Shown: one piece after another, positions 1 to 35,920 of the stretch
How positions within the stretch are numbered: the stretch's first letter is position 1
Layout: each line of letters opens with the position of its first letter
DNA from: a virus
Lineage: Duplodnaviria > Heunggongvirae > Uroviricota > Caudoviricetes
IMG/VR virus record: IMGVR_UViG_2529293138_000008
Span: 1-35,920 of that record
DNA length: 35,920 bases
Direction: 5' to 3' (one strand)
Translations under genes and position numbers: made by a program
The notes under the pieces: model-generated
The model's database searches: none
The model's input: only the letters and a program-made list of their open reading frames with translations
What the model was told of the DNA's origin: nothing

Positions 1-57
1 GGTATCCGTTCTGCTGAAGTGTCATGGCGTTGATTTTACGGTGACTCTTCGACAGTG

Positions 58-83
58 AAAAGAAAAAAGGCCGCAGAGCGGCC
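58..83 (-). terminator. Rho-independent terminator candidate for the int-cargo operon
   Basis: Perfect hairpin ggccgc-aga-gcggcc at 69-83; on the minus strand it is followed by a U-run (reverse complement of aaaagaaaaaa at 58-68). Lies about 125 bp downstream of the last minus-strand gene. Confidence 0.45.
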
Positions 84-208
84 ATAAACACAAATAAAAA
101 TCAATAAGTTAGATAATTATCAAAGACTTACAGACACACAAAAACACAGCCAACCACAACAAATAACAGGGATGTGGTCACTTTGTGGATCATATCGCCG
201 CCATAAAT

Positions 209-646
209 TTACTTAATAACAGTAACCACAGCCACAAGCACGGCCATCGCAGACAGGACAATACCTGTGAGTAACCAAGTCTGATTTGCAAATGATTTCT
301 GAAGTTCAGTACGATGCTCAGCCATCTCAACTTTCAGAGACTGGCGTAAATCAGCCATCTCAGACTTCAGGGATTGGCGAGATTCTGCCATCTCAAGCCT
401 CAACCCTTCGCGAATCTCCAGTACATCAGATTTGGTAGCAAAGGATTCGCTTCTTGTGGTGAGAGTAATCAGGTTGTTTTTGATTTCAGTCACATCACTT
501 TCCAGGCAACTGACCCGCCGTTCAAGGTCGTCATTCATGCCATCACCTCCATCATTACCACTTCCTGTTACTTGGTTGTTGGATACATTATAGGCATTCT
601 CTTTCTTTTTTCTGAACCGCGAAATATGTGCAACATTCTCTGCCAT
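209..646 (-). CDS. Hypothetical coiled-coil protein with C-terminal transmembrane anchor (cargo)
   Basis: ORF track 209..649. Start likely the ATG at 646 overlapping the upstream TGA stop (TGATG coupling); an alternative ATG at 538 has a strong GGAGGTGA SD. Four tandem 11-residue repeats ending in EMA/SFA, then hydrophobic tail LLTGIVLSAMAVLVAVVTVIK. Confidence 0.5.
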   Translation of the reverse strand: MAENVAHISRFRKKKENAYNVSNNQVTGSGNDGGDGMNDDLERRVSCLESDVTEIKNNLITLTTRSESFATKSDVLEIREGLRLEMAESRQSLKSEMADLRQSLKVEMAEHRTELQKSFANQTWLLTGIVLSAMAVLVAVVTVIK

Positions 647-1008
647 CACTTCTCATCACCCTGCTTGCCTACCCAGTTCATAAAGGCCCGGGCCGAGTAA
701 CGATGAACAAACCCACATCTGTTACAGGTAAGTCGGAATTCATAGTTATGGATATTTTCCCGATCATGTCCCTCATATCCCGGATACCCAGTAAATGGAC
801 CGATGTAATCAAGCATAACAAAAGTGCCTAAATCACACTCCTCAGCAGTTTTCGGCTCAGGCCCCACCTCAACAATATTCGTCAAATACATGTACATATC
901 CGTATCGCCACACGACAAACATTTTTCATTCGTAGACGACTCATTGAGAAAACGCGCAAAATTATCGAGCGTTGCCATTCTTTTAAGCTCATCTAAATGA
1001 AACTTCAC
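646..1008 (-). CDS. Hypothetical Cys-rich protein (CxxC ... CxxC), cargo downstream of int
   Basis: ORF track 646..1008. GTG start preceded by a perfect AGGAGGTG SD with 7-nt spacer. Two CxxCG motifs (CLSCG, CNRCG) suggest a zinc ribbon. Start abuts the int stop. Confidence 0.55.
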   Translation of the reverse strand: MKFHLDELKRMATLDNFARFLNESSTNEKCLSCGDTDMYMYLTNIVEVGPEPKTAEECDLGTFVMLDYIGPFTGYPGYEGHDRENIHNYEFRLTCNRCGFVHRYSARAFMNWVGKQGDEK

Positions 1009-4729: not shown

Positions 4730-7566
4730 GTGAGTTTGCATGGAGCTGGAATGAACCACGACCAGCCATTGATCCGGCCAGATTTACGGAGCACAGGCAG
4801 GAAACTGAAACCGACCTGCAACGCGCCATCCGTTACTACCTTGAGGCAGACAAAAAGGCTCTGGAAGAACAGGAAGCGAAGGAGGAAGCCTTTTTCGCAC
4901 AATCCACCGTGGGTAAAAAACTCATGGCATCCCTTGAGGAAGCCGGACAGCGTGAAAAGCTGGCACAAAGCATCATCAGCAAGCGTCAGGCAACAGAACA
5001 AGACCCGGTGGCCCGTGCTTTTGCCACACTGAAGGTGCTTCCCGTTTATCTGCGTGAACCTCTGAGCCGCCACCTCTCTTTCCTGCGCAAAAAACAGGAA
5101 GCCGATCGCCAGAAAGGCAAAAAGAGCTGGCAGGCTGAACGCTACGCGCGCGGAACCCTGCGCAAAATATTCGAACGTCTGGACCGCACCGATCACCGCT
5201 GGCTGACACCGGGTTATCGCTCCCTTGCCGGACGCGAACGCCTGGACGATTTGCTTTACCTGCCGCAGCTCAACAAACACCAGATACAGACGCTGGCCAC
5301 CATGACGGCGGCGATGTTCAGCAGCACCTTCGAAAAACTCTGCGATGGCTTTGGCGCGACTGATGGCGAACTGACCATGGATGTAACGCTGAAGGCGTAT
5401 CAGATGCTGGCCCGCATGGCGTTACACCTGCACGCCATGCCTCCACATTATGACGCACTGACAACAGACAAAGACCGGAGGAACGAACCGGACACGGAGC
5501 TGCTGCCGGGCGCAATCCTTCGCCTGACCTGTGCGGAATGGTGGAAACGCAAACTGTGGCTGTTACGTTGCGAGTGGAGAGAAGAACAACTCCGCGCCGC
5601 CTGTCTGGTTTCCAGAAAAACATCACCCTATCTGAGCCAGGACGCGTTAAGCGAGTTTCGCGCACAGCGCGAGAAAACACGCGATTTCCTGAAAAGTTTC
5701 ATGCTGGAAAATGAAGACGGGTTCACGATTGATCTCGAGACAGTGTATTACGCGGGAGTAAGTAACCCGGTTCACCGTAAGGCAGAAATGATGGCCACCA
5801 TGAAGGGACTGGAACTTCTGGCCGAAGCCCGTGGCGACAGAGCGGTGTTTCTGACTGTCACCTGCCCGTCAAAATACCACGCAACAACGGAGAACGGTCA
5901 TCCGAACCCCAAATGGAACGGGGCCACCATGCGCGACTCCAGCGATTACCTGGTTAACACGTTTTTTGCGGCGGTCCGCAAGAAACTGAACCGCGACGGC
6001 CTGCGCTGGTATGGCATCCGCACGGTGGAGCCTCACCATGACGGCACCGTGCACTGGCATATGATGGTCTTTGCTCATCCGGAAGAAATCGACACCATTG
6101 TGTCCCACACCCGCGATATTGCCATTCAGGAAGATTGTCACGAGCTGGGCGATGATATTACTCCGCGCTTTAAGGCGGAGTATGTCGACGGCTCAAAAGG
6201 CACGCCAACCAGCTACATCGCCACCTACATCGGAAAAAACCTGGACAGCCGCGCCGTGGATGGCATCGACCCGAAAACAGGCAAACCACGCGTTGACCAC
6301 GAAACCGGAAAATCAATGGCGGAGAGCGTGGAGCGCGCCATCGGCTGGGCGCGCCTTCACCGGGTCCGCCAGTTCCAGTTCTTTGGCATCCCCTCCCGTC
6401 AGGTGTGGCGTGAACTGCGCCGCCTTGCCAGCCAGATGGCACGCAACCCGGAAGGCCCGCAACGGCTGAAGGACGACGCAATGGATGCGGTACTCGCTGC
6501 CGCTGATGCCGGGTGTTTTGCCTCCTACATTGAAAAACAGGGTGGCGTACTTGTTCCACGCAAGGACTACCTGATTCGCACCGCCTACGACCTCGCAGAT
6601 GAGCTGAACGATTACGGCGAACAGAGCGTACAGATTTACGGGATCTGGTCACCACTCATCGGGGAATCCTCCCGTGTGTGCACGCACCCGGATAACTGGA
6701 AGCTGGTAAGACGTAAACCGGAAGCGGAAGACAGCGCCCGCGAAAATGGTTTTGACCTTCAGGGCGGCCCTGCCGCCCCTTGGACTCGTGGCAATAACTG
6801 TCCCCGTGTACAGGAAACGGACAACAACGGGACAGAACAGCCGGAAGAACGGCCAGCACCGTGGCCGCAGCTCCCTGACGGCGTTGAAGTAAACGAATGG
6901 ATGCGCTCACTGAAACGGCACGAACGCCGGGCGCTGATGCGTTCGCTTCGTGACAAACAGGCAAAAAACAGCAGTGATGAAATGCAGAGCTGGACACAGA
7001 GCCGCAAACAGCAGCGGCCTTTGCCTGATAACCACGAGTTACTCGCTAAAGAATGGCGGGAGTCTGCCGAATCTCTCGGCCTGCATATCGGTGAACAGCA
7101 GATGCAGCACCTGTTACGGGGCGGCAGCCTGTACGTTGACGGCAGCATCATTGCACCGCAGGGATATGAAATTGTACGCAAACCGGATACCCGCCCGGAC
7201 AGCCGGATCACGCAGCTCTGGCAACGCCTGAGCCGTAATCACGGCGTAAGCAGCACGGAGATCCGCCATAACCCGGTCGCCAGCTATCTGGAACAACTAG
7301 GGGCATCAGCCCCTGAAGCCGCCGCACGCCTGGCATCCACACTTCAGCAGAACCAGAACACCATGAAAACACCCGTTACCGTACTTTCTGACATGCTGCG
7401 CGCTATCCGTGACGCAGAGCACGCACAGAGAATCAGTGAAACCACTGAACGCGCCCGCCGCAAAGCAGACCTGCTGCGGGGTGGCCTGACCAGTGGAAAC
7501 AAAAAACAGACAGAAACGGGATTCACAAATCCCGTAAATGAGCAAAAGACGCGCCGCGATATATGA
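4726..7566 (+). CDS. A: Rolling-circle replication initiation protein (P2 gpA-like)
   Basis: ORF track 4699..7566; ATG 4726 chosen for stop-start coupling. Contains a metal-binding HWHMMVFAH motif and an active-site tyrosine region YIATYIGK. Position after the early genes matches P2/186. Longer than P2 A as I recall it. Confidence 0.85.
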   Translation: MSEFAWSWNEPRPAIDPARFTEHRQETETDLQRAIRYYLEADKKALEEQEAKEEAFFAQSTVGKKLMASLEEAGQREKLAQSIISKRQATEQDPVARAFATLKVLPVYLREPLSRHLSFLRKKQEADRQKGKKSWQAERYARGTLRKIFERLDRTDHRWLTPGYRSLAGRERLDDLLYLPQLNKHQIQTLATMTAAMFSSTFEKLCDGFGATDGELTMDVTLKAYQMLARMALHLHAMPPHYDALTTDKDRRNEPDTELLPGAILRLTCAEWWKRKLWLLRCEWREEQLRAACLVSRKTSPYLSQDALSEFRAQREKTRDFLKSFMLENEDGFTIDLETVYYAGVSNPVHRKAEMMATMKGLELLAEARGDRAVFLTVTCPSKYHATTENGHPNPKWNGATMRDSSDYLVNTFFAAVRKKLNRDGLRWYGIRTVEPHHDGTVHWHMMVFAHPEEIDTIVSHTRDIAIQEDCHELGDDITPRFKAEYVDGSKGTPTSYIATYIGKNLDSRAVDGIDPKTGKPRVDHETGKSMAESVERAIGWARLHRVRQFQFFGIPSRQVWRELRRLASQMARNPEGPQRLKDDAMDAVLAAADAGCFASYIEKQGGVLVPRKDYLIRTAYDLADELNDYGEQSVQIYGIWSPLIGESSRVCTHPDNWKLVRRKPEAEDSARENGFDLQGGPAAPWTRGNNCPRVQETDNNGTEQPEERPAPWPQLPDGVEVNEWMRSLKRHERRALMRSLRDKQAKNSSDEMQSWTQSRKQQRPLPDNHELLAKEWRESAESLGLHIGEQQMQHLLRGGSLYVDGSIIAPQGYEIVRKPDTRPDSRITQLWQRLSRNHGVSSTEIRHNPVASYLEQLGASAPEAAARLASTLQQNQNTMKTPVTVLSDMLRAIRDAEHAQRISETTERARRKADLLRGGLTSGNKKQTETGFTNPVNEQKTRRDI
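7516..7535. repeat. 20-bp palindrome acgggatt-caca-aatcccgt (copy 1, inside 3' end of A)
   Basis: Read directly: 8-bp inverted arms with 4-bp spacer; conserved flanks aaacggg...cccgtaaa shared with copy 2. Confidence 0.6.
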
Positions 7567-7642: not shown

Positions 7643-8602
7643 ATGAAAATTTGTATCGACGACGGCTCCACCAACATCAAGCTGGCATGGACTGAGAACG
7701 GCGAACGCCGCAACGCCATCAGCCCGAACAGCTTCAAGTCGGAATGGTCTGCGCCGTTCGGTGGCACGACGCCTGCAAACTACATGCTTGATGGCGTGCG
7801 CTATGGTTTTGATCCGGTCAGCGATCGCTTTGTCCAGACGACCGACACGCAATATCAGTACAGCGATGTGAATGTCATTGCCATACATCACGCACTGCTC
7901 AAATCAGGCATCACACCACAGGAAGTGGATGTGGTTGTCACCCTGCCACTGAGCGAGTATTTCGACACAAACGCCCAGCCGGATATGACCAACATCAACC
8001 GCAAAAAAGCGAACGTTATGCGACCGGTGGAATACCAGAACGGCGAAGCATTCACTATCCGTAATGTACGGGTTATGCCTGAATCCATTCCGGCTGGCTT
8101 TAAAGCACTGGCTGACATGAGTCCGTTTGAATCCCTGCTGATTGTGGATTTGGGCGGAACCACGCTGGATGTGGCAAAGGTTCAGGGACAACTGGCAGGT
8201 ATCAGCCAGGTGTTTTGCGATCCACACGTAGGCGTTTCACTGATGACCGATGCAGTGCTGTCGGTGATGGCCACCAACGGTATGCGTACCAGCCACCACA
8301 TCGCCAATACCATTATCGAACATCGCCACGATGAAACCTGGCTGCGCCAGCACATCCACAATGACGCGCATTACGCCAGCCTGATGGCGGTTATTAGTGA
8401 AAAGGAAGAAACACTGAAACAACGCGTGATCCGTGCGCTGGCGGGTTTTTCGGGTTACGGGCGGGTGATGGTTGTCGGTGGCGGGGCGGAGATTGTGGCA
8501 CCCGCTATCCGCGAAGCCTGCGGAGTTAATGCGACTTTCATCGCGGACGGGGTGCCACAGTTTGCTCTGGTTAATGGGCTGTACGCAATGGACAAGGAGT
8601 AA
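7643..8602 (+). CDS. parM: ParM/StbA-like actin-type segregation ATPase
   Basis: N-terminus MKICIDDGSTNIKLAW matches plasmid R1 ParM (MLVFIDDGSTNIKLQW, from memory). Further matches recalled: ISPNSFK, YSDVNVIAIHHALL, VMPESIPAG, DLGGTTLD, GGGAE. Length 319 aa, same as ParM. Confidence 0.8.
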   Translation: MKICIDDGSTNIKLAWTENGERRNAISPNSFKSEWSAPFGGTTPANYMLDGVRYGFDPVSDRFVQTTDTQYQYSDVNVIAIHHALLKSGITPQEVDVVVTLPLSEYFDTNAQPDMTNINRKKANVMRPVEYQNGEAFTIRNVRVMPESIPAGFKALADMSPFESLLIVDLGGTTLDVAKVQGQLAGISQVFCDPHVGVSLMTDAVLSVMATNGMRTSHHIANTIIEHRHDETWLRQHIHNDAHYASLMAVISEKEETLKQRVIRALAGFSGYGRVMVVGGGAEIVAPAIREACGVNATFIADGVPQFALVNGLYAMDKE

Positions 8603-8606
8603 ACCA

Positions 8607-8918
8607 ATGACGACACCAACCAGACGAATAAGTTTCTATCTGAAGCCCGCCGCCGTCAAGAACGAAGGCGAAGCATGCGCCTGGCTGGACAGCCTTACAC
8701 CAGAAGCCCGTAAAAACGGCCAACGCGTGGCTTTTCTGGCCGGGCTGGCGCTTCTGAAAATGAATCCGGCAGAGGCTTACCGACTGGCAGCATGGGCTGA
8801 CGATGAGGCGTTATCAGTGAGACAAACCAGGACAGAACGCCCCCTGTCACAGCCAGTACCAACCGCACAGATAACCAGTCAGATGGCCGGAAATATCAGG
8901 GCGTTATTTCCTGAATAA
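8607..8918 (+). CDS. ParR-like centromere-binding adaptor (putative)
   Basis: ORF track 8472..8918 trimmed to ATG 8607, which follows a ggag SD 4 bp after the parM stop. About 103 aa. ISFYLKP...LDSLTPEAR...AFLAGLALL...ALFPE parallels R1 ParR (IAFKLNP...DSIPQGERS...ALTAGLALY...SLFPKE, from memory). Confidence 0.5.
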   Translation: MTTPTRRISFYLKPAAVKNEGEACAWLDSLTPEARKNGQRVAFLAGLALLKMNPAEAYRLAAWADDEALSVRQTRTERPLSQPVPTAQITSQMAGNIRALFPE

Positions 8919-25155: not shown

Positions 25156-25163
25156 AGGTGAAC

Positions 25164-25742
25164 ATGGATTTCAGAATGAGTGAACAACCACGGACCATAA
25201 AAATTTATAATCTGCTGGCGGGAACCAATGAATTTATTGGTGAAGGTGATGCATACATTCCACCTCATACAGGTCTGCCAGCAAACAGTACCGATATTGC
25301 GCCGCCAGATATTCCGGCAGGATTCGTAGCCGTTTTCAACAGTGATGAGGCATCGTGGCATCTCGTTGAAGACCATCGGGGAAAAACCGTCTATGACGTG
25401 GCTTCCGGCGACGCGTTATTTATTTCTGAACTCGGTCCGTTACCGGAAAATGTCACATTGCTGTCACCGGAGGGGGAGTATCAGAAGTGGAACGGCACAG
25501 CCTGGGTGAAGGATACGGAAGCAGAAAAAATGTTCCGGATACGGGGCGCTGAAGAAACCAAAAACAGCCTCATGCAGGTAGCCAGCGAGCATATTGCGCC
25601 ACTTCAGGATGCCGTAGATTTAGATATTGCGACGGAGGAAGAGGTATCGTTACTGGCTGCATGGAAGACATATCGGGTATTGTTGAATCGCGTTGATACA
25701 ACAGTGGCAGCGGATGTTGAGTGGCCAGTCGCACCACAATAA
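25164..25742 (+). CDS. G: Tail fiber assembly chaperone (P2 gpG/Tfa-like)
   Basis: ORF track 25158..25742; ATG 25164 follows an agagg SD. Position directly after the fiber genes; acidic C-terminus typical of Tfa proteins. Confidence 0.7.
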
Positions 25743-33582: not shown

Positions 33583-35085
33583 ATGAACAAAAAGCTGTAT
33601 TTATTCCCAGACTCAAACATTTTTCTACAATGCAAGGACTTGACGCAGGTAAATTTTTCCGAGATTACTGCTTGTGATGAAGTATGTATCATTATTACAA
33701 GGCCCATTCAGCAAGAGATTGACCGCCAGAAAGGGCAAGGTAATTCCCGCCTATCCAAAAAAGCAAGGAAGGCTGCTAGCCTATTTAATCAAGTAGTTGA
33801 TTCAACTGACATGACTCTTGTTATTCGTGAACGCTCGCCGCGAGTTTTTCTTACCATGGATCTAAGCCTGAAACCATGTGAACAGTTATCTGAACAATTG
33901 GATTATCAGGAGGCCGACGATCGTTTTGTTGGTATTGCGGCAGGGTATTGCGCTGACGATCCAGATTCGGAGGTGGCAATCATTACCAATGATAGCGGTC
34001 CACGTTTTTCAGCAATAAAACATAATATAATCTGCTATAAAGTGCCTTCTTCATGGTTGCTTCCTGCTGAGCCAGATGAAAAGGATAAACAAATTAAATT
34101 GCTGGAAGCTAAGCTGAAGCAATTCACTCAGTCTATGCCCGATTTCAGCATTAAAGTAGCCGATGACGAGCAATTAAATATTGTACTTCCTTATTATACA
34201 GCTTTATCTGTATATGAAGTTGATAATTTGCTTTGTCAACTAACGGATGCATTCCCATTGGTTACAAACTTTGACAATGAACAAACTACCCCACAATCAC
34301 TAGAAAAAATCATCAAGTCATTTAGTCAACAGGAGTATTTCCCTGTATCAGCAGATGATATTTCTCTTTATAAAGAAAAACATTATCCACTTTGGAAAAA
34401 GCAGTGTGAAGAAATACTGAAAAACTGTCATACTCATATTAATCCGAAGGCAATAAAATACCCGCTGTCGTTTTTATTACAAAACACAGGTTATACTATC
34501 GCTGAACGTGCTGTGGTAACATTTACAGCAAAAGGAGATTTTCGTCTGTGTGGATTTAATTGGGAGATAATGGAAGAGCTGACTGAAAGCAAAAGGATTG
34601 ACCTACCTTCAGCCCCTACCGCCCCCAAAGGAAAATGGCGTAGTGTATGTGGCGTAACAGAAAGAATGCCTTACGCTTGGGGAGCTTTGGAAACACCGCT
34701 ATCCAGTATAATTTCAAAAGAAATTGGTCCTTTGTTATCTCTTACTCCAACAGAAAGGGATAAAAACGATTTTTATTATAAAGAAAAGAGAAATGAGCCA
34801 GTTCAAGTTGTATCGCTGGAATGCGAAGAGTGGCGTCATCAAGTCAAAGAAGAAATATTCCCGTTGTTCGTATATACAGCCAACAAACCAAAGAAAGTGA
34901 ATGGTGCAATTGAGGTGAGAGTTGATGCAAATAACCTTACCAATCCGGTCATTAAAACATTTAAATTAAAAATAACTATAGAAGAACATAGTGCATTTTC
35001 AACCATAACAGAAATGGTGCAGACATACATTCAAGAGCAGAAGAAAAGACAGAAAAGTTCTATTAGCGCACAAATCAAAACATGA
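33583..35085 (+). CDS. Stand-alone 500-aa protein with PIN-like N-terminal nuclease fold and uncharacterised C-terminal domain (cargo; candidate defence gene)
   Basis: AT-rich gene with its own sigma70-like promoter region (TTGATA ... TATATT around 33520-33560), gagg SD and downstream hairpin. N-terminal acidic residues in PIN-like spacing: LYLFPDSNIF (D), QQEID (E/D), QEADDRFVGIAAG (D), AIITNDSGP (D). C-terminal ~330 aa has no motif I recognise. Confidence 0.6.
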   Translation: MNKKLYLFPDSNIFLQCKDLTQVNFSEITACDEVCIIITRPIQQEIDRQKGQGNSRLSKKARKAASLFNQVVDSTDMTLVIRERSPRVFLTMDLSLKPCEQLSEQLDYQEADDRFVGIAAGYCADDPDSEVAIITNDSGPRFSAIKHNIICYKVPSSWLLPAEPDEKDKQIKLLEAKLKQFTQSMPDFSIKVADDEQLNIVLPYYTALSVYEVDNLLCQLTDAFPLVTNFDNEQTTPQSLEKIIKSFSQQEYFPVSADDISLYKEKHYPLWKKQCEEILKNCHTHINPKAIKYPLSFLLQNTGYTIAERAVVTFTAKGDFRLCGFNWEIMEELTESKRIDLPSAPTAPKGKWRSVCGVTERMPYAWGALETPLSSIISKEIGPLLSLTPTERDKNDFYYKEKRNEPVQVVSLECEEWRHQVKEEIFPLFVYTANKPKKVNGAIEVRVDANNLTNPVIKTFKLKITIEEHSAFSTITEMVQTYIQEQKKRQKSSISAQIKT

Positions 35086-35218: not shown

Positions 35219-35328
35219 CTATTTCTTCAAGAGTTAAATCACCGCTTTTCGCTCGAAACGGACTGGCTGTTGGAGTATGAGCCAGAACAACTTAGAATAG
35301 CCCCTGCACTACGTTAAGGGAGGTCGCT

Positions 35329-35589
35329 ATGTTCCGTTGTCCGCTTTGTGGCGCATCTGCCCGCATCCGTACCAGTCGTCCGGAAAATGATTCAAACACC
35401 GTGCGGCAAAAGTATTACCAGTGTAACAATCTAGAATGCGGCGTATGCTTCTCAACACTGGAAGCTTTTCATAAATTCACATCGAAACACGCCTCCGGCG
35501 TTCACTCTTCAGAAGGTATCCCGTGGCATGAGCTGCCAGCTTCACACAGGGGAAACAATCAGATGAGTTTGCCTTTGCCTCAAAATTAA
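35329..35589 (+). CDS. ogr: Ogr/Delta-family zinc-finger late-gene transcription activator
   Basis: MFRCPLCGASARIRTSR ... YYQCNNLECGVCFSTLE matches the P2 Ogr Cys4 pattern (MFHCPLCQHAAHARTSR ... YHQCQNVNCSATF, from memory). AAGGGAGG SD upstream. Confidence 0.85.
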   Translation: MFRCPLCGASARIRTSRPENDSNTVRQKYYQCNNLECGVCFSTLEAFHKFTSKHASGVHSSEGIPWHELPASHRGNNQMSLPLPQN

Positions 35590-35649
35590 CAGGCAGAATT
35601 GCCGGAGTAACAAAAAAGCGATAGATTACGCGCGGGTGCCTTTCGGCTG

Positions 35650-35862
35650 ATGGTCGGAGGGAATACCCGAAGGCCAGATGTGGAAAGGCCCCGGAAAACA
35701 TCTCTGTTTAACCGAGGCCCTAACCGCATTACCTTGACAAGTGAAAGGTTAGCGCCTCTCCGGAAAAGGAGCAAGTGCTATGTCGCAAAAATCGCTTACG
35801 GCCATCACGTTCTGTGTGACGGCAATCCTCATCATCTGGATGTTGCACGGTTCGCTGTGTGA
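35650..35862 (+). CDS. Mok-like overlapping reading frame of a hok/sok-type locus (putative)
   Basis: 70-aa ORF overlapping the hok start in a different frame, as in hok/mok/sok loci. Weak by itself. Confidence 0.35.
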   Translation: MVGGNTRRPDVERPRKTSLFNRGPNRITLTSERLAPLRKRSKCYVAKIAYGHHVLCDGNPHHLDVARFAV

Positions 35863-35920
35863 AATACGGATGAGCTTCTGGGGAGCGGAGTTTGCGGCGT
35901 TCTTACAGTGTAAGCAGTAA
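35780..35920 (+). CDS. hok: Hok/Gef-family type I toxin (small membrane peptide)
   Basis: 46-aa ORF MSQKSLTAITFCVTAILIIWMLHGSLCEIRMSFWGAEFAAFLQCKQ: N-terminal TM helix followed by the family-typical SLCEIR motif and AAF. Stop codon is the last three bases of the window. Confidence 0.7.
   Translation: MSQKSLTAITFCVTAILIIWMLHGSLCEIRMSFWGAEFAAFLQCKQ

What the first reader, a model, noticed from the sequence alone, without database searches (positions are those of the whole stretch)
35590..35920. hok/mok-type type I toxin locus immediately after ogr at the window edge
A 46-aa Hok/Gef-like toxin with the overlapping Mok-like frame follows ogr by about 190 bp. It is either prophage cargo at the right end (post-segregational killing, which pairs with the partition cassette in a plasmid-like-maintenance reading) or the host flank marking attR. 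The antisense Sok RNA could not be placed by eye.
Basis: partly seen in the sequence, partly recalled or inferred. Interest (0 to 1): 0.45.

Follow-up and report, generated by a model that had tools for sequence, protein, structure and literature searches.

The report
Phage-carried hok/sok toxin–antitoxin locus
The last 330 bases of the window hold a real hok/sok-type toxin–antisense RNA module that belongs to the P2-like prophage, not to the host; it is a common, already annotated kind of phage cargo, and its 3' end is cut off by the window edge.

Summary
A 46-aa Hok/Gef-family toxin gene (35780-35920) lies 190 bp after ogr and passes Pfam's own cut-off. Its leader has the hok-type RNA anatomy: a conserved promoter, a 5' tac element, a ucb box and a GAGG target hairpin.

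The window stops at the hok stop codon. The 3' stem-loop, the fbi element and the terminator were read from an E. coli genome identical over the last 621 bases.

The cargo-or-flank question is settled. The attR core lies 265 bp beyond hok, the K-12 empty site (btuC-ihfA) has no hok, and isolated phages such as P88 carry the locus. Phage P2 has no hok at the ogr-attP junction.

One departure from the plasmid R1 model stands out. The Mok-like frame is open in this allele, but 47 of 89 related loci have no such frame. None has the canonical mok AUG, which a control Hok clade always keeps.

This is an ordinary member of a known kind, with one unexplained regulatory detail.

The parts
59..83 (.). 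attL core AAAGAAAAAAGGCCGCAGAGCGGCC (5' half of the ihfA terminator). The same 25 bp recur as the attR core 265 bp beyond the hok stop, outside the window.
   Evidence: Longest common block between window 1-220 and L001 6741-6960; attB in K-12 is the uninterrupted sequence.
35329..35589 (+). ogr (late-gene activator); the last core phage gene before the hok module.
   Evidence: Pfam Ogr_Delta 52.4 bits; PGAP annotation in identical genomes.
35599..35627 (+). Predicted hok promoter: -35 TTGCCG (35599-35604), 17-nt spacer, -10 TAGATT (35622-35627).
   Evidence: Read from the sequence. The same two hexamers and spacing are kept in three or more unrelated upstream contexts, namely P2-like, Stx phages and others. 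It aligns with the hokC promoter of K-12. It falls below the threshold of the consensus scanner.
35634..35648 (+). 5' end of the hok mRNA and tac element GGGUGCCUUUCGGCU. It pairs either with fbi in the 3' UTR (outside the window) or with ucb.
   Evidence: Minimum-free-energy folds. tac/fbi helix 95% paired and tac/ucb helix 98% paired over 49 distinct homologues. The Rfam RF01794 match starts here.
35680..35692 (+). ucb-like box (GUGGAAAGGCCCC). In the full-length fold its 3' GGCC pairs with the GAGGCC region, helping to sequester GAGG (its 5' GUGG pairs with the target-loop region); it pairs with tac in the 3'-trimmed fold.
   Evidence: the GGAAAGGCCCC block is invariant or nearly invariant in alignment A2.
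35714..35758 (+). Sok-target hairpin of the trimmed mRNA. GAGGCCCUAACC (homologous to the mok SD region) pairs with GGUUAGCGCCUC (dcb-like). The loop is the most variable part of the locus.
   Evidence: Helix 98% paired in 49 sequences. 22 loop variants are listed. Positional homology to CCGAGGCC of hokC.
35682..35738 (-). Predicted Sok-like antisense RNA of about 57 nt: a 5' single-stranded tail of about 13-17 nt (GUCAAGGUAAUGC, up to ...GGUU), a hairpin GGGCCUCGG...CCGGGGCC(U), then UUCC.
   Evidence: Fold -22.9 kcal/mol, z -3.7, none of 200 shuffles as good. Hairpin pairs kept, with some compensatory changes (helix 5). Same position and shape as the annotated sokC of K-12. The ends are predicted, not mapped.
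35746..35774 (-). Predicted sok promoter: -35 TTGCTC (35774 to 35769), 17-nt spacer, -10 TAACCT (35751 to 35746). It overlaps the hok SD region, as in R1.
   Evidence: Read from the sequence. AGGTTA is invariant in 48 of 49 sequences and GAGCAA is nearly invariant in A2. Not reported by the consensus scanner.
35650..35862 (+). Mok-like frame, -1 relative to hok. Possible starts are ATG 35650, GTG 35680, ATT 35728 and TTG 35734. It stops at TGA 35860-35862, a stop created by the TGT codon of Hok Cys27.
   Evidence: Open in 42 of 89 related loci, and in all 29 that share this window's loop allele. Absent from 47, including phage P88 and the Stx-phage paralogues.
35750..35782 (+). Local hairpin that occludes the hok ribosome-binding site: anti-SD CUCC (35758-35761) against SD AAGGAG (35766-35771), with the stem reaching the UA before and the A of the AUG (35780).
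   Evidence: Helix 7, 94% paired. The SD stays about 75-80% paired in ensemble calculations for the full-length, trimmed and Sok-blocked forms.
35780..35920 (+). hok toxin gene, 46 aa: an N-terminal hydrophobic helix, then the SLCEIR ... EFAAF motif.
   Evidence: Pfam PF01848 above its cut-off. Family-invariant residues C12, T14, L26, C27, E28, E37, A39, F41. dN/dS 0-0.13 within the P2-like group.
35879..35895 (+). 17-nt block, strictly invariant in all 49 homologues, inside a longer nearly invariant stretch of the hok coding sequence. It pairs with the hok start region (AUGUCGCAAAAAUCGCU).
   Evidence: helix 8/9 is 99.8-99.9% paired.

Best explanation
The locus is a hok/sok-type type I toxin-antitoxin module carried as accessory cargo by a P88-like (Xuanwuvirus, P2 family) prophage. 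It sits between ogr and the phage attachment site. The prophage is integrated between btuC and ihfA.

Inferred mechanism, by homology with plasmid R1 hok/sok and K-12 hokC/sokC:
1. A weak constitutive promoter makes a stable hok mRNA. This mRNA is locked shut by pairing of its 5' end (tac, 35634-35648) with an fbi element in the 3' UTR, just beyond the window edge.
2. Slow 3' trimming back to a protective stem-loop removes fbi.
3. tac then pairs with ucb, and a hairpin forms that presents a variable loop.
4. A short-lived antisense Sok-like RNA of about 57 nt (35738 to 35682, own promoter) binds that hairpin. It prevents toxin synthesis and probably triggers RNase III cleavage.
5. When Sok supply stops, the 46-aa Hok peptide is made and damages the inner membrane. 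Sok supply could stop through loss of the prophage, transcription shut-off by a superinfecting phage, or prophage induction.

Shown here: family membership of the peptide, the RNA helices and their conservation, the position inside the prophage, absence from the empty site, and presence in free phages.

Inferred: toxicity, the Sok ends, the processing steps, and the biological role. Candidate roles are prophage addiction, exclusion of other phages, or help with lysis as reported for hokW-sokW.
For: - Peptide: Pfam HOK_GEF 29.9 bits against a cut-off of 22. NCBIfam closest family is HokA. Conserved Hok residues are present.
- Leader: Rfam RF01794 E 8.8e-10. It aligns element by element with the K-12 hokC leader.
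- RNA structure: in the full-length fold, 15 tac positions pair with GGCCGGAUAAGGCACCC of the 3' UTR. Over 49 distinct homologues, 93.6% of cells pair, against 36-45% when partners are slid. 16 pairs show changes on both sides. The trimmed fold gives 95.3% paired, with tac/ucb at 98% and the target hairpin at 98%.
- Sok: stable hairpin, z -3.7. Promoter hexamers are conserved. Geometry matches the annotated sokC.
- Cargo: the att core is at window 59-83 and at L001 6886-6910. K-12 attB is uninterrupted and has no hok. The same locus, 93-97% identical, is in phages P88, Chuche, PhiR44_2, P884B11, 500465-2 and Shae_phiSM. P2 has only a terminator and attP after ogr.
- Selection on Hok: dN/dS 0-0.13 within the P2-like group.
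Against: - There are no expression or toxicity data for this clade.
- The Rfam score is below the family's gathering threshold.
- Neither promoter reaches the threshold of the consensus scanner.
- The 3' half of the RNA switch is not in the window. It was read from genomes identical over only the last 621 bases. The window's own source genome was not found whole in the collections.
- The clade lacks the canonical mok start, and more than half of its alleles lack any leader ORF. In R1, translation of such an ORF up to the hok SD is mandatory (PMC9841398).
- Most helices are conserved rather than covarying. The structure tested was derived from one member of the alignment.
Confidence: 0.85

Rival explanations
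1. The hok locus is host chromosome, not phage: it marks the host side of attR.
For: It lies at the extreme edge of the predicted prophage. E. coli chromosomes carry several hok loci of their own.
Against: - Host sequence resumes only 265 bp after the hok stop, at the 25-bp att core.
- The K-12 btuC-ihfA intergenic region is uninterrupted and has no hok.
- Isolated phage genomes carry the same locus next to ogr.
Confidence: 0.02
2. The locus is a silent or decaying relic. The RNA elements and the ORF persist, but Hok is not translated because the mok leader needed for coupling has degenerated.
For: - There is no AUG at the mok position in any allele, and 47 of 89 loci have no leader ORF reading into the hok start.
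- A control Hok clade keeps such an AUG in 49 of 49 distinct sequences.
- In R1, stop codons in mok upstream of hok abolish toxicity (PMC9841398).
- The hok SD stays about 75-80% paired in every modelled conformer.
- K-12 chromosomal hok loci are known to be inactivated; hokA is split by IS150.
Against: - The hok ORF is intact in all 49 distinct sequences, with mostly synonymous change.
- All switch helices and both promoters are conserved at down to about 75% DNA identity over the aligned 421-nt region.
- The window's own allele keeps the frame open through the hok start.
- 42 of 45 diverse Hok homologues tested were toxic (bioRxiv 10.1101/2025.08.07.668861).
Confidence: 0.13
3. The locus is part of a plasmid-like maintenance kit. 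With the ParM/ParR cassette it stabilises an extrachromosomal form of the phage, as parMRC and hok/sok do for plasmid R1.
For: - ParM (273.6 and 231.5 bits) and a ParR-like Plasmid_stab_B protein are encoded at 7643-8918.
- The cassette is shared by 14 P88-like phage records, five of which (four distinct phages) also appear in the hok list.
Against: - The element is integrated, with an integrase (1011-2138) and an att core repeat.
- Phage 500465-2 has hok but does not appear in the ParM list, and several ParM phages are not among the top hok hits.
- No episomal copy was seen: 1994 of 2011 matching places are chromosomal.
Confidence: 0.1

Closest known systems
hok/mok/sok (parB) of plasmid R1
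   Same: - A Hok-family peptide with the LCE motif.
- A 5' tac element that pairs with a 3' fbi element, and the alternative tac/ucb stem.
- A GAGG-containing target hairpin.
- An antisense RNA gene whose -35 box overlaps the hok SD.
- The SD AAGGAG is occluded.
- A protective 3' stem-loop follows the stop codon.
(R1 model as described in PMC9841398.)
   Different: - The peptide is 46 aa against 52, and only 33% identical.
- It is carried by an integrating phage, not a plasmid.
- There is no AUG 8 nt after GAGG.
- The leader frame is present in only about half of the alleles, and in this allele it ends inside hok at codon 28.
hokC/mokC/sokC and hokA of E. coli K-12
   Same: - The hokC leader aligns element by element: promoter, GGGTGC start, ucb and CCGAGGCC.
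- sokC (59 nt, 5' end 49 nt before the hokC AUG) has the same position and hairpin as the predicted Sok here (5' end 42 nt before the AUG).
- HokA is the closest named NCBIfam family.
   Different: - 26% peptide identity to HokC.
- The score against the HokA equivalog model is far below its cut-off (34 against 89).
- mokC starts with an AUG 57 nt upstream, which this clade lacks.
- K-12 hokA is disrupted by IS150, so it could not be compared usefully.
hokW-sokW of Stx2 prophage Sp5 (Takada et al. 2021, PMC8621323)
   Same: - A phage-borne hok/sok locus in E. coli.
- RefSeq names the P88 gene 'MokW-like host killing'.
- It is the only prophage hok/sok with a tested role: Sok loss on induction, earlier lysis, and a two-fold higher phage yield.
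   Different: - HokW is a 51-aa HokC-like peptide (MKQQKAM...) with a different leader (GGGTGCTTGAGG...), in a lambdoid phage.
- The Stx-phage relative of the present locus is a separate 46-aa paralogue, 74% identical in protein.
ogr-attP junction of phage P2
   Same: Same gene order (D, ogr, att, int) and the same family of late-gene activator.
   Different: - P2 has about 100 bp between ogr and the attP core, holding only a terminator and Int/IHF sites.
- Here about 595 bp lie between them and hold the hok module.
- A second insertion, the PIN-domain gene, separates D from ogr.

Membership tests
Hok/Gef toxin family (Pfam PF01848) | Profile match at or above the curated gathering score. | tested here: met
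   29.9 bits against a cut-off of 22, E 4.1e-7, residues 7-44 on profile positions 5-42 of 42.
Hok/Gef toxin family (Pfam PF01848) | Peptide of about 50 aa with an N-terminal hydrophobic helix and the conserved C..T...LCE...E residues. | tested here: met
   46 aa. C12, T14, L26, C27, E28 and E37 align with C16, T18, L30, C31, E32 and E41 of R1 Hok (residue list from bioRxiv 10.1101/2025.08.07.668861). The C-terminal conserved Glu (E49 of R1) is absent.
Hok/Gef toxin family (Pfam PF01848) | Membrane toxicity on expression. | not testable with these tools
42 of 45 diverse Hok homologues were toxic in the cited preprint, but I did not confirm that this clade was among them.
HokA equivalog (NCBIfam NF007290) | Score at or above the equivalog cut-off. 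| tested here: not met
   34 bits against a cut-off of 89. It is HokA-like but not HokA.
[quoted passage not shown] | Antisense RNA gene with its own promoter, complementary to the hok leader. | tested here: met
   Sequence level only. TTGCTC-17-TAACCT on the minus strand, a conserved hairpin with z -3.7, and the same geometry as the annotated sokC. No transcript data.
[quoted passage not shown] | Long-range 5' tac / 3' fbi pairing that closes the full-length mRNA, and the alternative tac/ucb stem after 3' trimming. | tested here: met
   Folds. 95% and 98% of cells pair across 49 homologues, against about 40% for slid controls. fbi lies outside the window and was read from locus L001 (6671-6687).
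[quoted passage not shown] | mok leader ORF: an SD plus a start codon about 57 nt upstream, translated into the hok initiation region. | tested here: not met
   No AUG at the homologous position in any allele. 26 of 48 distinct sequences (47 of 89 loci) have no ATG/GTG/TTG ORF reaching the hok SD. The control clade has one in 49 of 49. This window's allele does keep an open frame (35650-35862), but with only distant or non-canonical starts.
[quoted passage not shown] | Match to the Rfam hok-leader/sok model RF01794 at its gathering score. | tested here: inconclusive
   48.4 bits against a gathering score of 59, E 8.8e-10 in a 621-base search, covering the full model 1-157. The match is on the hok strand, so it certifies the leader rather than the strand of Sok.
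[quoted passage not shown] | 3' exonucleolytic activation, RNase III cleavage of the duplex, and short Sok half-life. | not testable with these tools
   These need RNA biochemistry.
Accessory cargo (moron) of a P2-family prophage | Lies between attL and attR, is absent from the empty site, is present in free phage genomes, and is absent from the type phage at the same junction. | tested here: met
   att cores at window 59-83 and L001 6886-6910. K-12 empty site. P88 and five other phages. P2 junction.

The most novel reading that the evidence does not exclude
The 46-aa Hok clade carried by P88-like and Stx phages may regulate toxin synthesis without a mok leader ORF. All RNA switch elements, including the GAGG box that serves as the mok SD in R1, are kept. 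Yet the mok AUG is gone from every allele, and over half the alleles have no leader ORF at all, while Hok stays under purifying selection. If these alleles are active, the 30-year-old rule that hok translation needs mok coupling does not hold for a widespread natural clade. Sok would then have to act in another way, for example through cleavage alone or a standby-site block.
Probability: 0.2. Interest if true: 0.5.

Novelty: new member of a known kind. Interest (0 to 1): 0.25.

Why it matters
On its own this locus is routine. Hok genes are known to be enriched in prophages. This exact protein (WP_000078916.1) is already annotated by RefSeq, and the ogr-hok stretch matches in about a fifth of complete E. 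coli genomes.

The check is useful for three reasons:
- It fixes the true right boundary of the prophage. The attR core is 265 bp beyond the window.
- It shows that prophage callers routinely clip the hok 3' UTR.
- It maps all regulatory parts of a phage-borne hok clade that nobody has characterised.

The one point of wider interest is the missing mok start. This clade offers natural allele pairs, with and without a leader frame, for testing whether mok coupling is universal in hok/sok systems. It could also help show what a hok module does for an integrating phage: addiction, exclusion of other phages, or lysis timing.

Tried and rejected
- The consensus promoter scan found no sigma-70 site in the locus. 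Both promoters were therefore placed by homology to hokC/sokC and by conservation, not by the scanner.
I used a five-sequence alignment instead.
- I looked for the window's source genome. The left 3 kb is 99.6% identical to strain SCU-387 and relatives. The last 621 bases are 100% identical to O157:H7 Z885 and four others. No complete genome matches the last 12 kb above 96.5%. The right flank is therefore taken from proxies, but SCU-387 and Z885 agree on hok-attR-ihfA.
- I tested whether a leader ORF starting at the conserved AUGUGG motif (35678-35683) could replace mok. Its end point varies from -100 to +137 among alleles, and the motif is buried in the tac/ucb stem. Rejected.
- I tested whether the GAGG...CCUAACC/dcb hairpin frees the hok SD directly, as an 'anti-anti-SD'. 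Ensemble calculations keep the SD 72-80% paired in the full-length, trimmed and Sok-blocked forms of three alleles. Not supported.
- Comparison with K-12 hokA was uninformative because IS150 splits its leader.
- PADLOC gave nothing for Hok, for the PIN-domain protein or for one of the two small ORFs next to attL; the other small ORF (209-649) had only a marginal LmuB-like match (E 0.0074).
- A chance ORF and a host-flank origin were both rejected (see the rival explanations).

Full report
**What is in the sequence.** The last 330 bases of the window contain an ATG-initiated ORF at 35780-35920 that encodes 46 aa. It scores 29.9 bits on Pfam HOK_GEF, above the curated cut-off of 22. Its closest NCBIfam model is HokA, at 34 bits and well below the equivalog cut-off. 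The leader at 35634-35793 matches Rfam RF01794 over the whole model, with E 8.8e-10 but 48.4 bits against a gathering score of 59. The match is on the hok strand. The model consensus begins GGGUGCUUGAG and ends at AUG, so what it recognises is the hok leader. The ogr-hok stretch (window 35300-35920) matches in 1561 records from 1553 of 5426 complete E. coli genomes, and 1158 genomes cover at least 80% of it. It is annotated there as a Hok/Gef family protein.

**The window edge.** The window stops at the hok stop codon. Twenty-seven of 80 IMG/VR contigs that carry this gene end at the same base. This looks like a prophage caller trimming at the last called gene. I therefore read the 3' part from E. 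coli O157:H7 Z885 (locus L001), which is 100% identical to window 35300-35920. The window coordinate equals the L001 coordinate plus 29299.

**Cargo or host flank.**
- In L001 the hok stop (6621) is followed by a stem-loop (6631-6652), the sequence GGCCGGATAAGGCACCC (6671-6687), a terminator (6709-6745), about 140 bp more, and then ihfA.
- All 5426 genomes match this flank, but most, including K-12, match only from L001 6886 onward.
- The K-12 btuC-ihfA intergenic region reads ...GTGAAAAGAAAAAAGGCCGCAGAGCGGCCTTTTTAGTTAG... without interruption and has no hok.
- The 25-bp block AAAGAAAAAAGGCCGCAGAGCGGCC occurs at window 59-83 (attL) and at L001 6886-6910 (attR). It is the 5' half of the ihfA terminator.
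- A second genome, SCU-387, has a left end 99.6% identical to the window and shows the same ogr-hok-attR-ihfA order.
- Isolated phages P88, Chuche, PhiR44_2, P884B11, 500465-2 and Citrobacter phage Shae_phiSM carry the locus at 93-97% identity. In P88 it lies downstream of the tail gene in the same order and is named 'MokW-like host killing'. P88 is a viable phage inducible by mitomycin C (PMC5285337).
- Phage P2 has only a terminator and the attP sites in the roughly 100 bp between ogr and the att core.

hok is therefore phage cargo inserted at the ogr-attP junction. The host-flank alternative is refuted.

**RNA anatomy.**
- Upstream of the mRNA start, TTGCCG (35599-35604), a 17-nt spacer and TAGATT (35622-35627) are kept with the same spacing in at least three unrelated upstream contexts. 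They align with the hokC promoter.
- Folding L001 6335-6690 gives -159.6 kcal/mol. The 5' GGGUGCCUUUCGGCU pairs with the 3' GGCCGGAUAAGGCACCC.
- When the sequence is cut after the post-stop stem-loop, the 5' end instead pairs with GGAAAGGCCCC (35682-35692). In addition, GAGGCCCUAACC (35714-35725) pairs with GGUUAGCGCCUC (35747-35758).
- These are the tac/fbi, tac/ucb and SD/dcb elements of the R1 model (PMC9841398).
- On an alignment of 49 distinct homologues, some only about 75% identical over the aligned 421-nt region, the full-length structure has 93.6% of cells paired, against 36-45% for slid partners. Sixteen pairs change on both sides.
- The trimmed structure has 95.3% of cells paired, with tac/ucb at 98% and the target hairpin at 98%.
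- The clearest compensatory changes are in the post-stop stem-loop and in a long-range helix between 35732-35744 and the 3' UTR.
- Caveats: the structure was derived from one member of the alignment, and most pairs are conserved rather than covarying.

**Placing Sok.** On the minus strand, TTGCTC (35774 to 35769), a 17-nt spacer and TAACCT (35751 to 35746) form a promoter. Its boxes are the reverse complements of the nearly invariant GAGCAA and AGGTTA. A start near 35738 gives an RNA with a single-stranded tail of about 13-17 nt, a strong hairpin and UUUCC. Its fold energy is -22.9 kcal/mol, z -3.7. The annotated sokC of K-12 has the same position relative to GAGG and to the toxin AUG, and a homologous hairpin. 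The tail's target, the loop at about 35726-35745, is the most variable segment of the family, with 22 variants. That pattern would fit diversification of antisense specificity. Z885 and other EHEC genomes hold a second matching place, and a 46-aa paralogue lies in Stx phages.

**The Mok-like frame.** The frame at 35650-35862 is in the R1-type -1 register. In this clade, however:
- No allele has an AUG at the position of the mok or mokC start.
- 26 of 48 distinct sequences, or 47 of 89 loci, have no ATG/GTG/TTG ORF in any frame that reaches the hok SD. These include P88 and all Stx-phage paralogues.
- The window's loop allele is the most common (29 loci), and it always keeps the frame open.
- As a control, 49 of 49 distinct phage-borne HokC/HokW-like loci keep an ATG at -56 to -59 that reads through the hok start, whatever the frame.
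- The hok ORF is nevertheless intact everywhere, with dN/dS 0-0.13 inside the P2-like group.
- A synonymous TGT/TGC change at Cys27 moves the frame's stop by 51 nt. [quoted passage not shown]

I tested two ways round the missing mok, and neither held. One was a leader ORF starting at the conserved AUGUGG motif. The other was direct release of the hok SD in the trimmed conformer. The point stays unexplained.

**Function.** What the module does for the phage is inferred, not shown. Known roles of relatives are:
- post-segregational killing, for R1;
- partial exclusion of T4 by R1 hok/sok (as cited in PMC8621323);
- faster lysis and a two-fold higher phage yield for hokW-sokW of Sp5 (PMC8621323).

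A census preprint reports hok enrichment in prophages and leaves the function open (bioRxiv 10.1101/2025.08.07.668861). The ParM/ParR cassette at 7643-8918 is real and typical of P88-like phages. The element is integrated, though, and I found no sign of a plasmid state.

**Verdict.** The locus is an ordinary, already annotated member of the hok/sok kind. The only unusual feature is the clade-wide loss of the canonical mok start.

Noticed in passing
window 7643-8918: A ParM (StbA_N 273.6 bits, ParM C-terminal 231.5 bits) plus ParR-like (Plasmid_stab_B 83.8 bits) partition cassette lies just after the replication gene. The same cassette is in 14 P88-like phage records. An actin-type plasmid segregation system in an integrating P2-family phage has no obvious role.
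   Followed up: partly
window 33583-35085; L095 2205-3788: A 500-aa PIN-domain protein sits between the gpD-like tail gene and ogr, which are adjacent in P2. In strain SCU-387 the same slot holds a GmrSD restriction endonuclease-domain gene instead. This looks like a variable cargo slot, possibly for defence genes. PADLOC and NCBIfam gave no hit for the PIN protein.
   Followed up: partly
window 209-1008 (minus strand): Two small ORFs of 146 and 120 aa lie between attL and the integrase. They are annotated as hypothetical in relatives and have no Pfam hit. The first has weak coiled-coil-like matches only.
   Followed up: partly
window 25507-25705: This is the only Rfam match at gathering score in the whole window: IS009 (RF02111), 171.6 bits against a cut-off of 117. 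It lies inside the ORF at 25158-25742 in the tail-fibre region.
   Followed up: no
window 35920 (right edge); loci L018-L073: 27 of 80 IMG/VR contigs carrying this hok end exactly at its stop codon, as the window does. Prophage boundary calls therefore routinely drop the hok 3' UTR (fbi, terminator) and the last roughly 290 bp of the prophage, including attR.
   Followed up: yes
window 35858-35862: The Cys27 codon of hok is TGT in some alleles and TGC in others. TGT creates the TGA that ends the Mok-like frame at +83. TGC lets the frame run to +134. Both forms are common among relatives.
   Followed up: yes
window 35879-35895: TGGGGAGCGGAGTTTGC inside the hok coding sequence is identical in all 49 distinct homologues, synonymous positions included. 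It pairs with the hok start region, so the constraint is on the RNA as well as on the peptide.
   Followed up: yes
window 35726-35745: The loop targeted by the Sok 5' tail is the most variable part of the locus, with 22 variants in 89 loci. Z885 and other EHEC genomes hold a second matching place, and a 46-aa paralogue lies in Stx phages. This suggests selection against cross-talk between co-resident sok RNAs.
   Followed up: partly
whole window: The prophage is a mosaic. The left 3 kb is 99.6% identical to the SCU-387 lineage. The last 621 bases are 100% identical to O157:H7 Z885. No complete E. coli genome in the collection matches the last 12 kb above 96.5%.
   Followed up: partly
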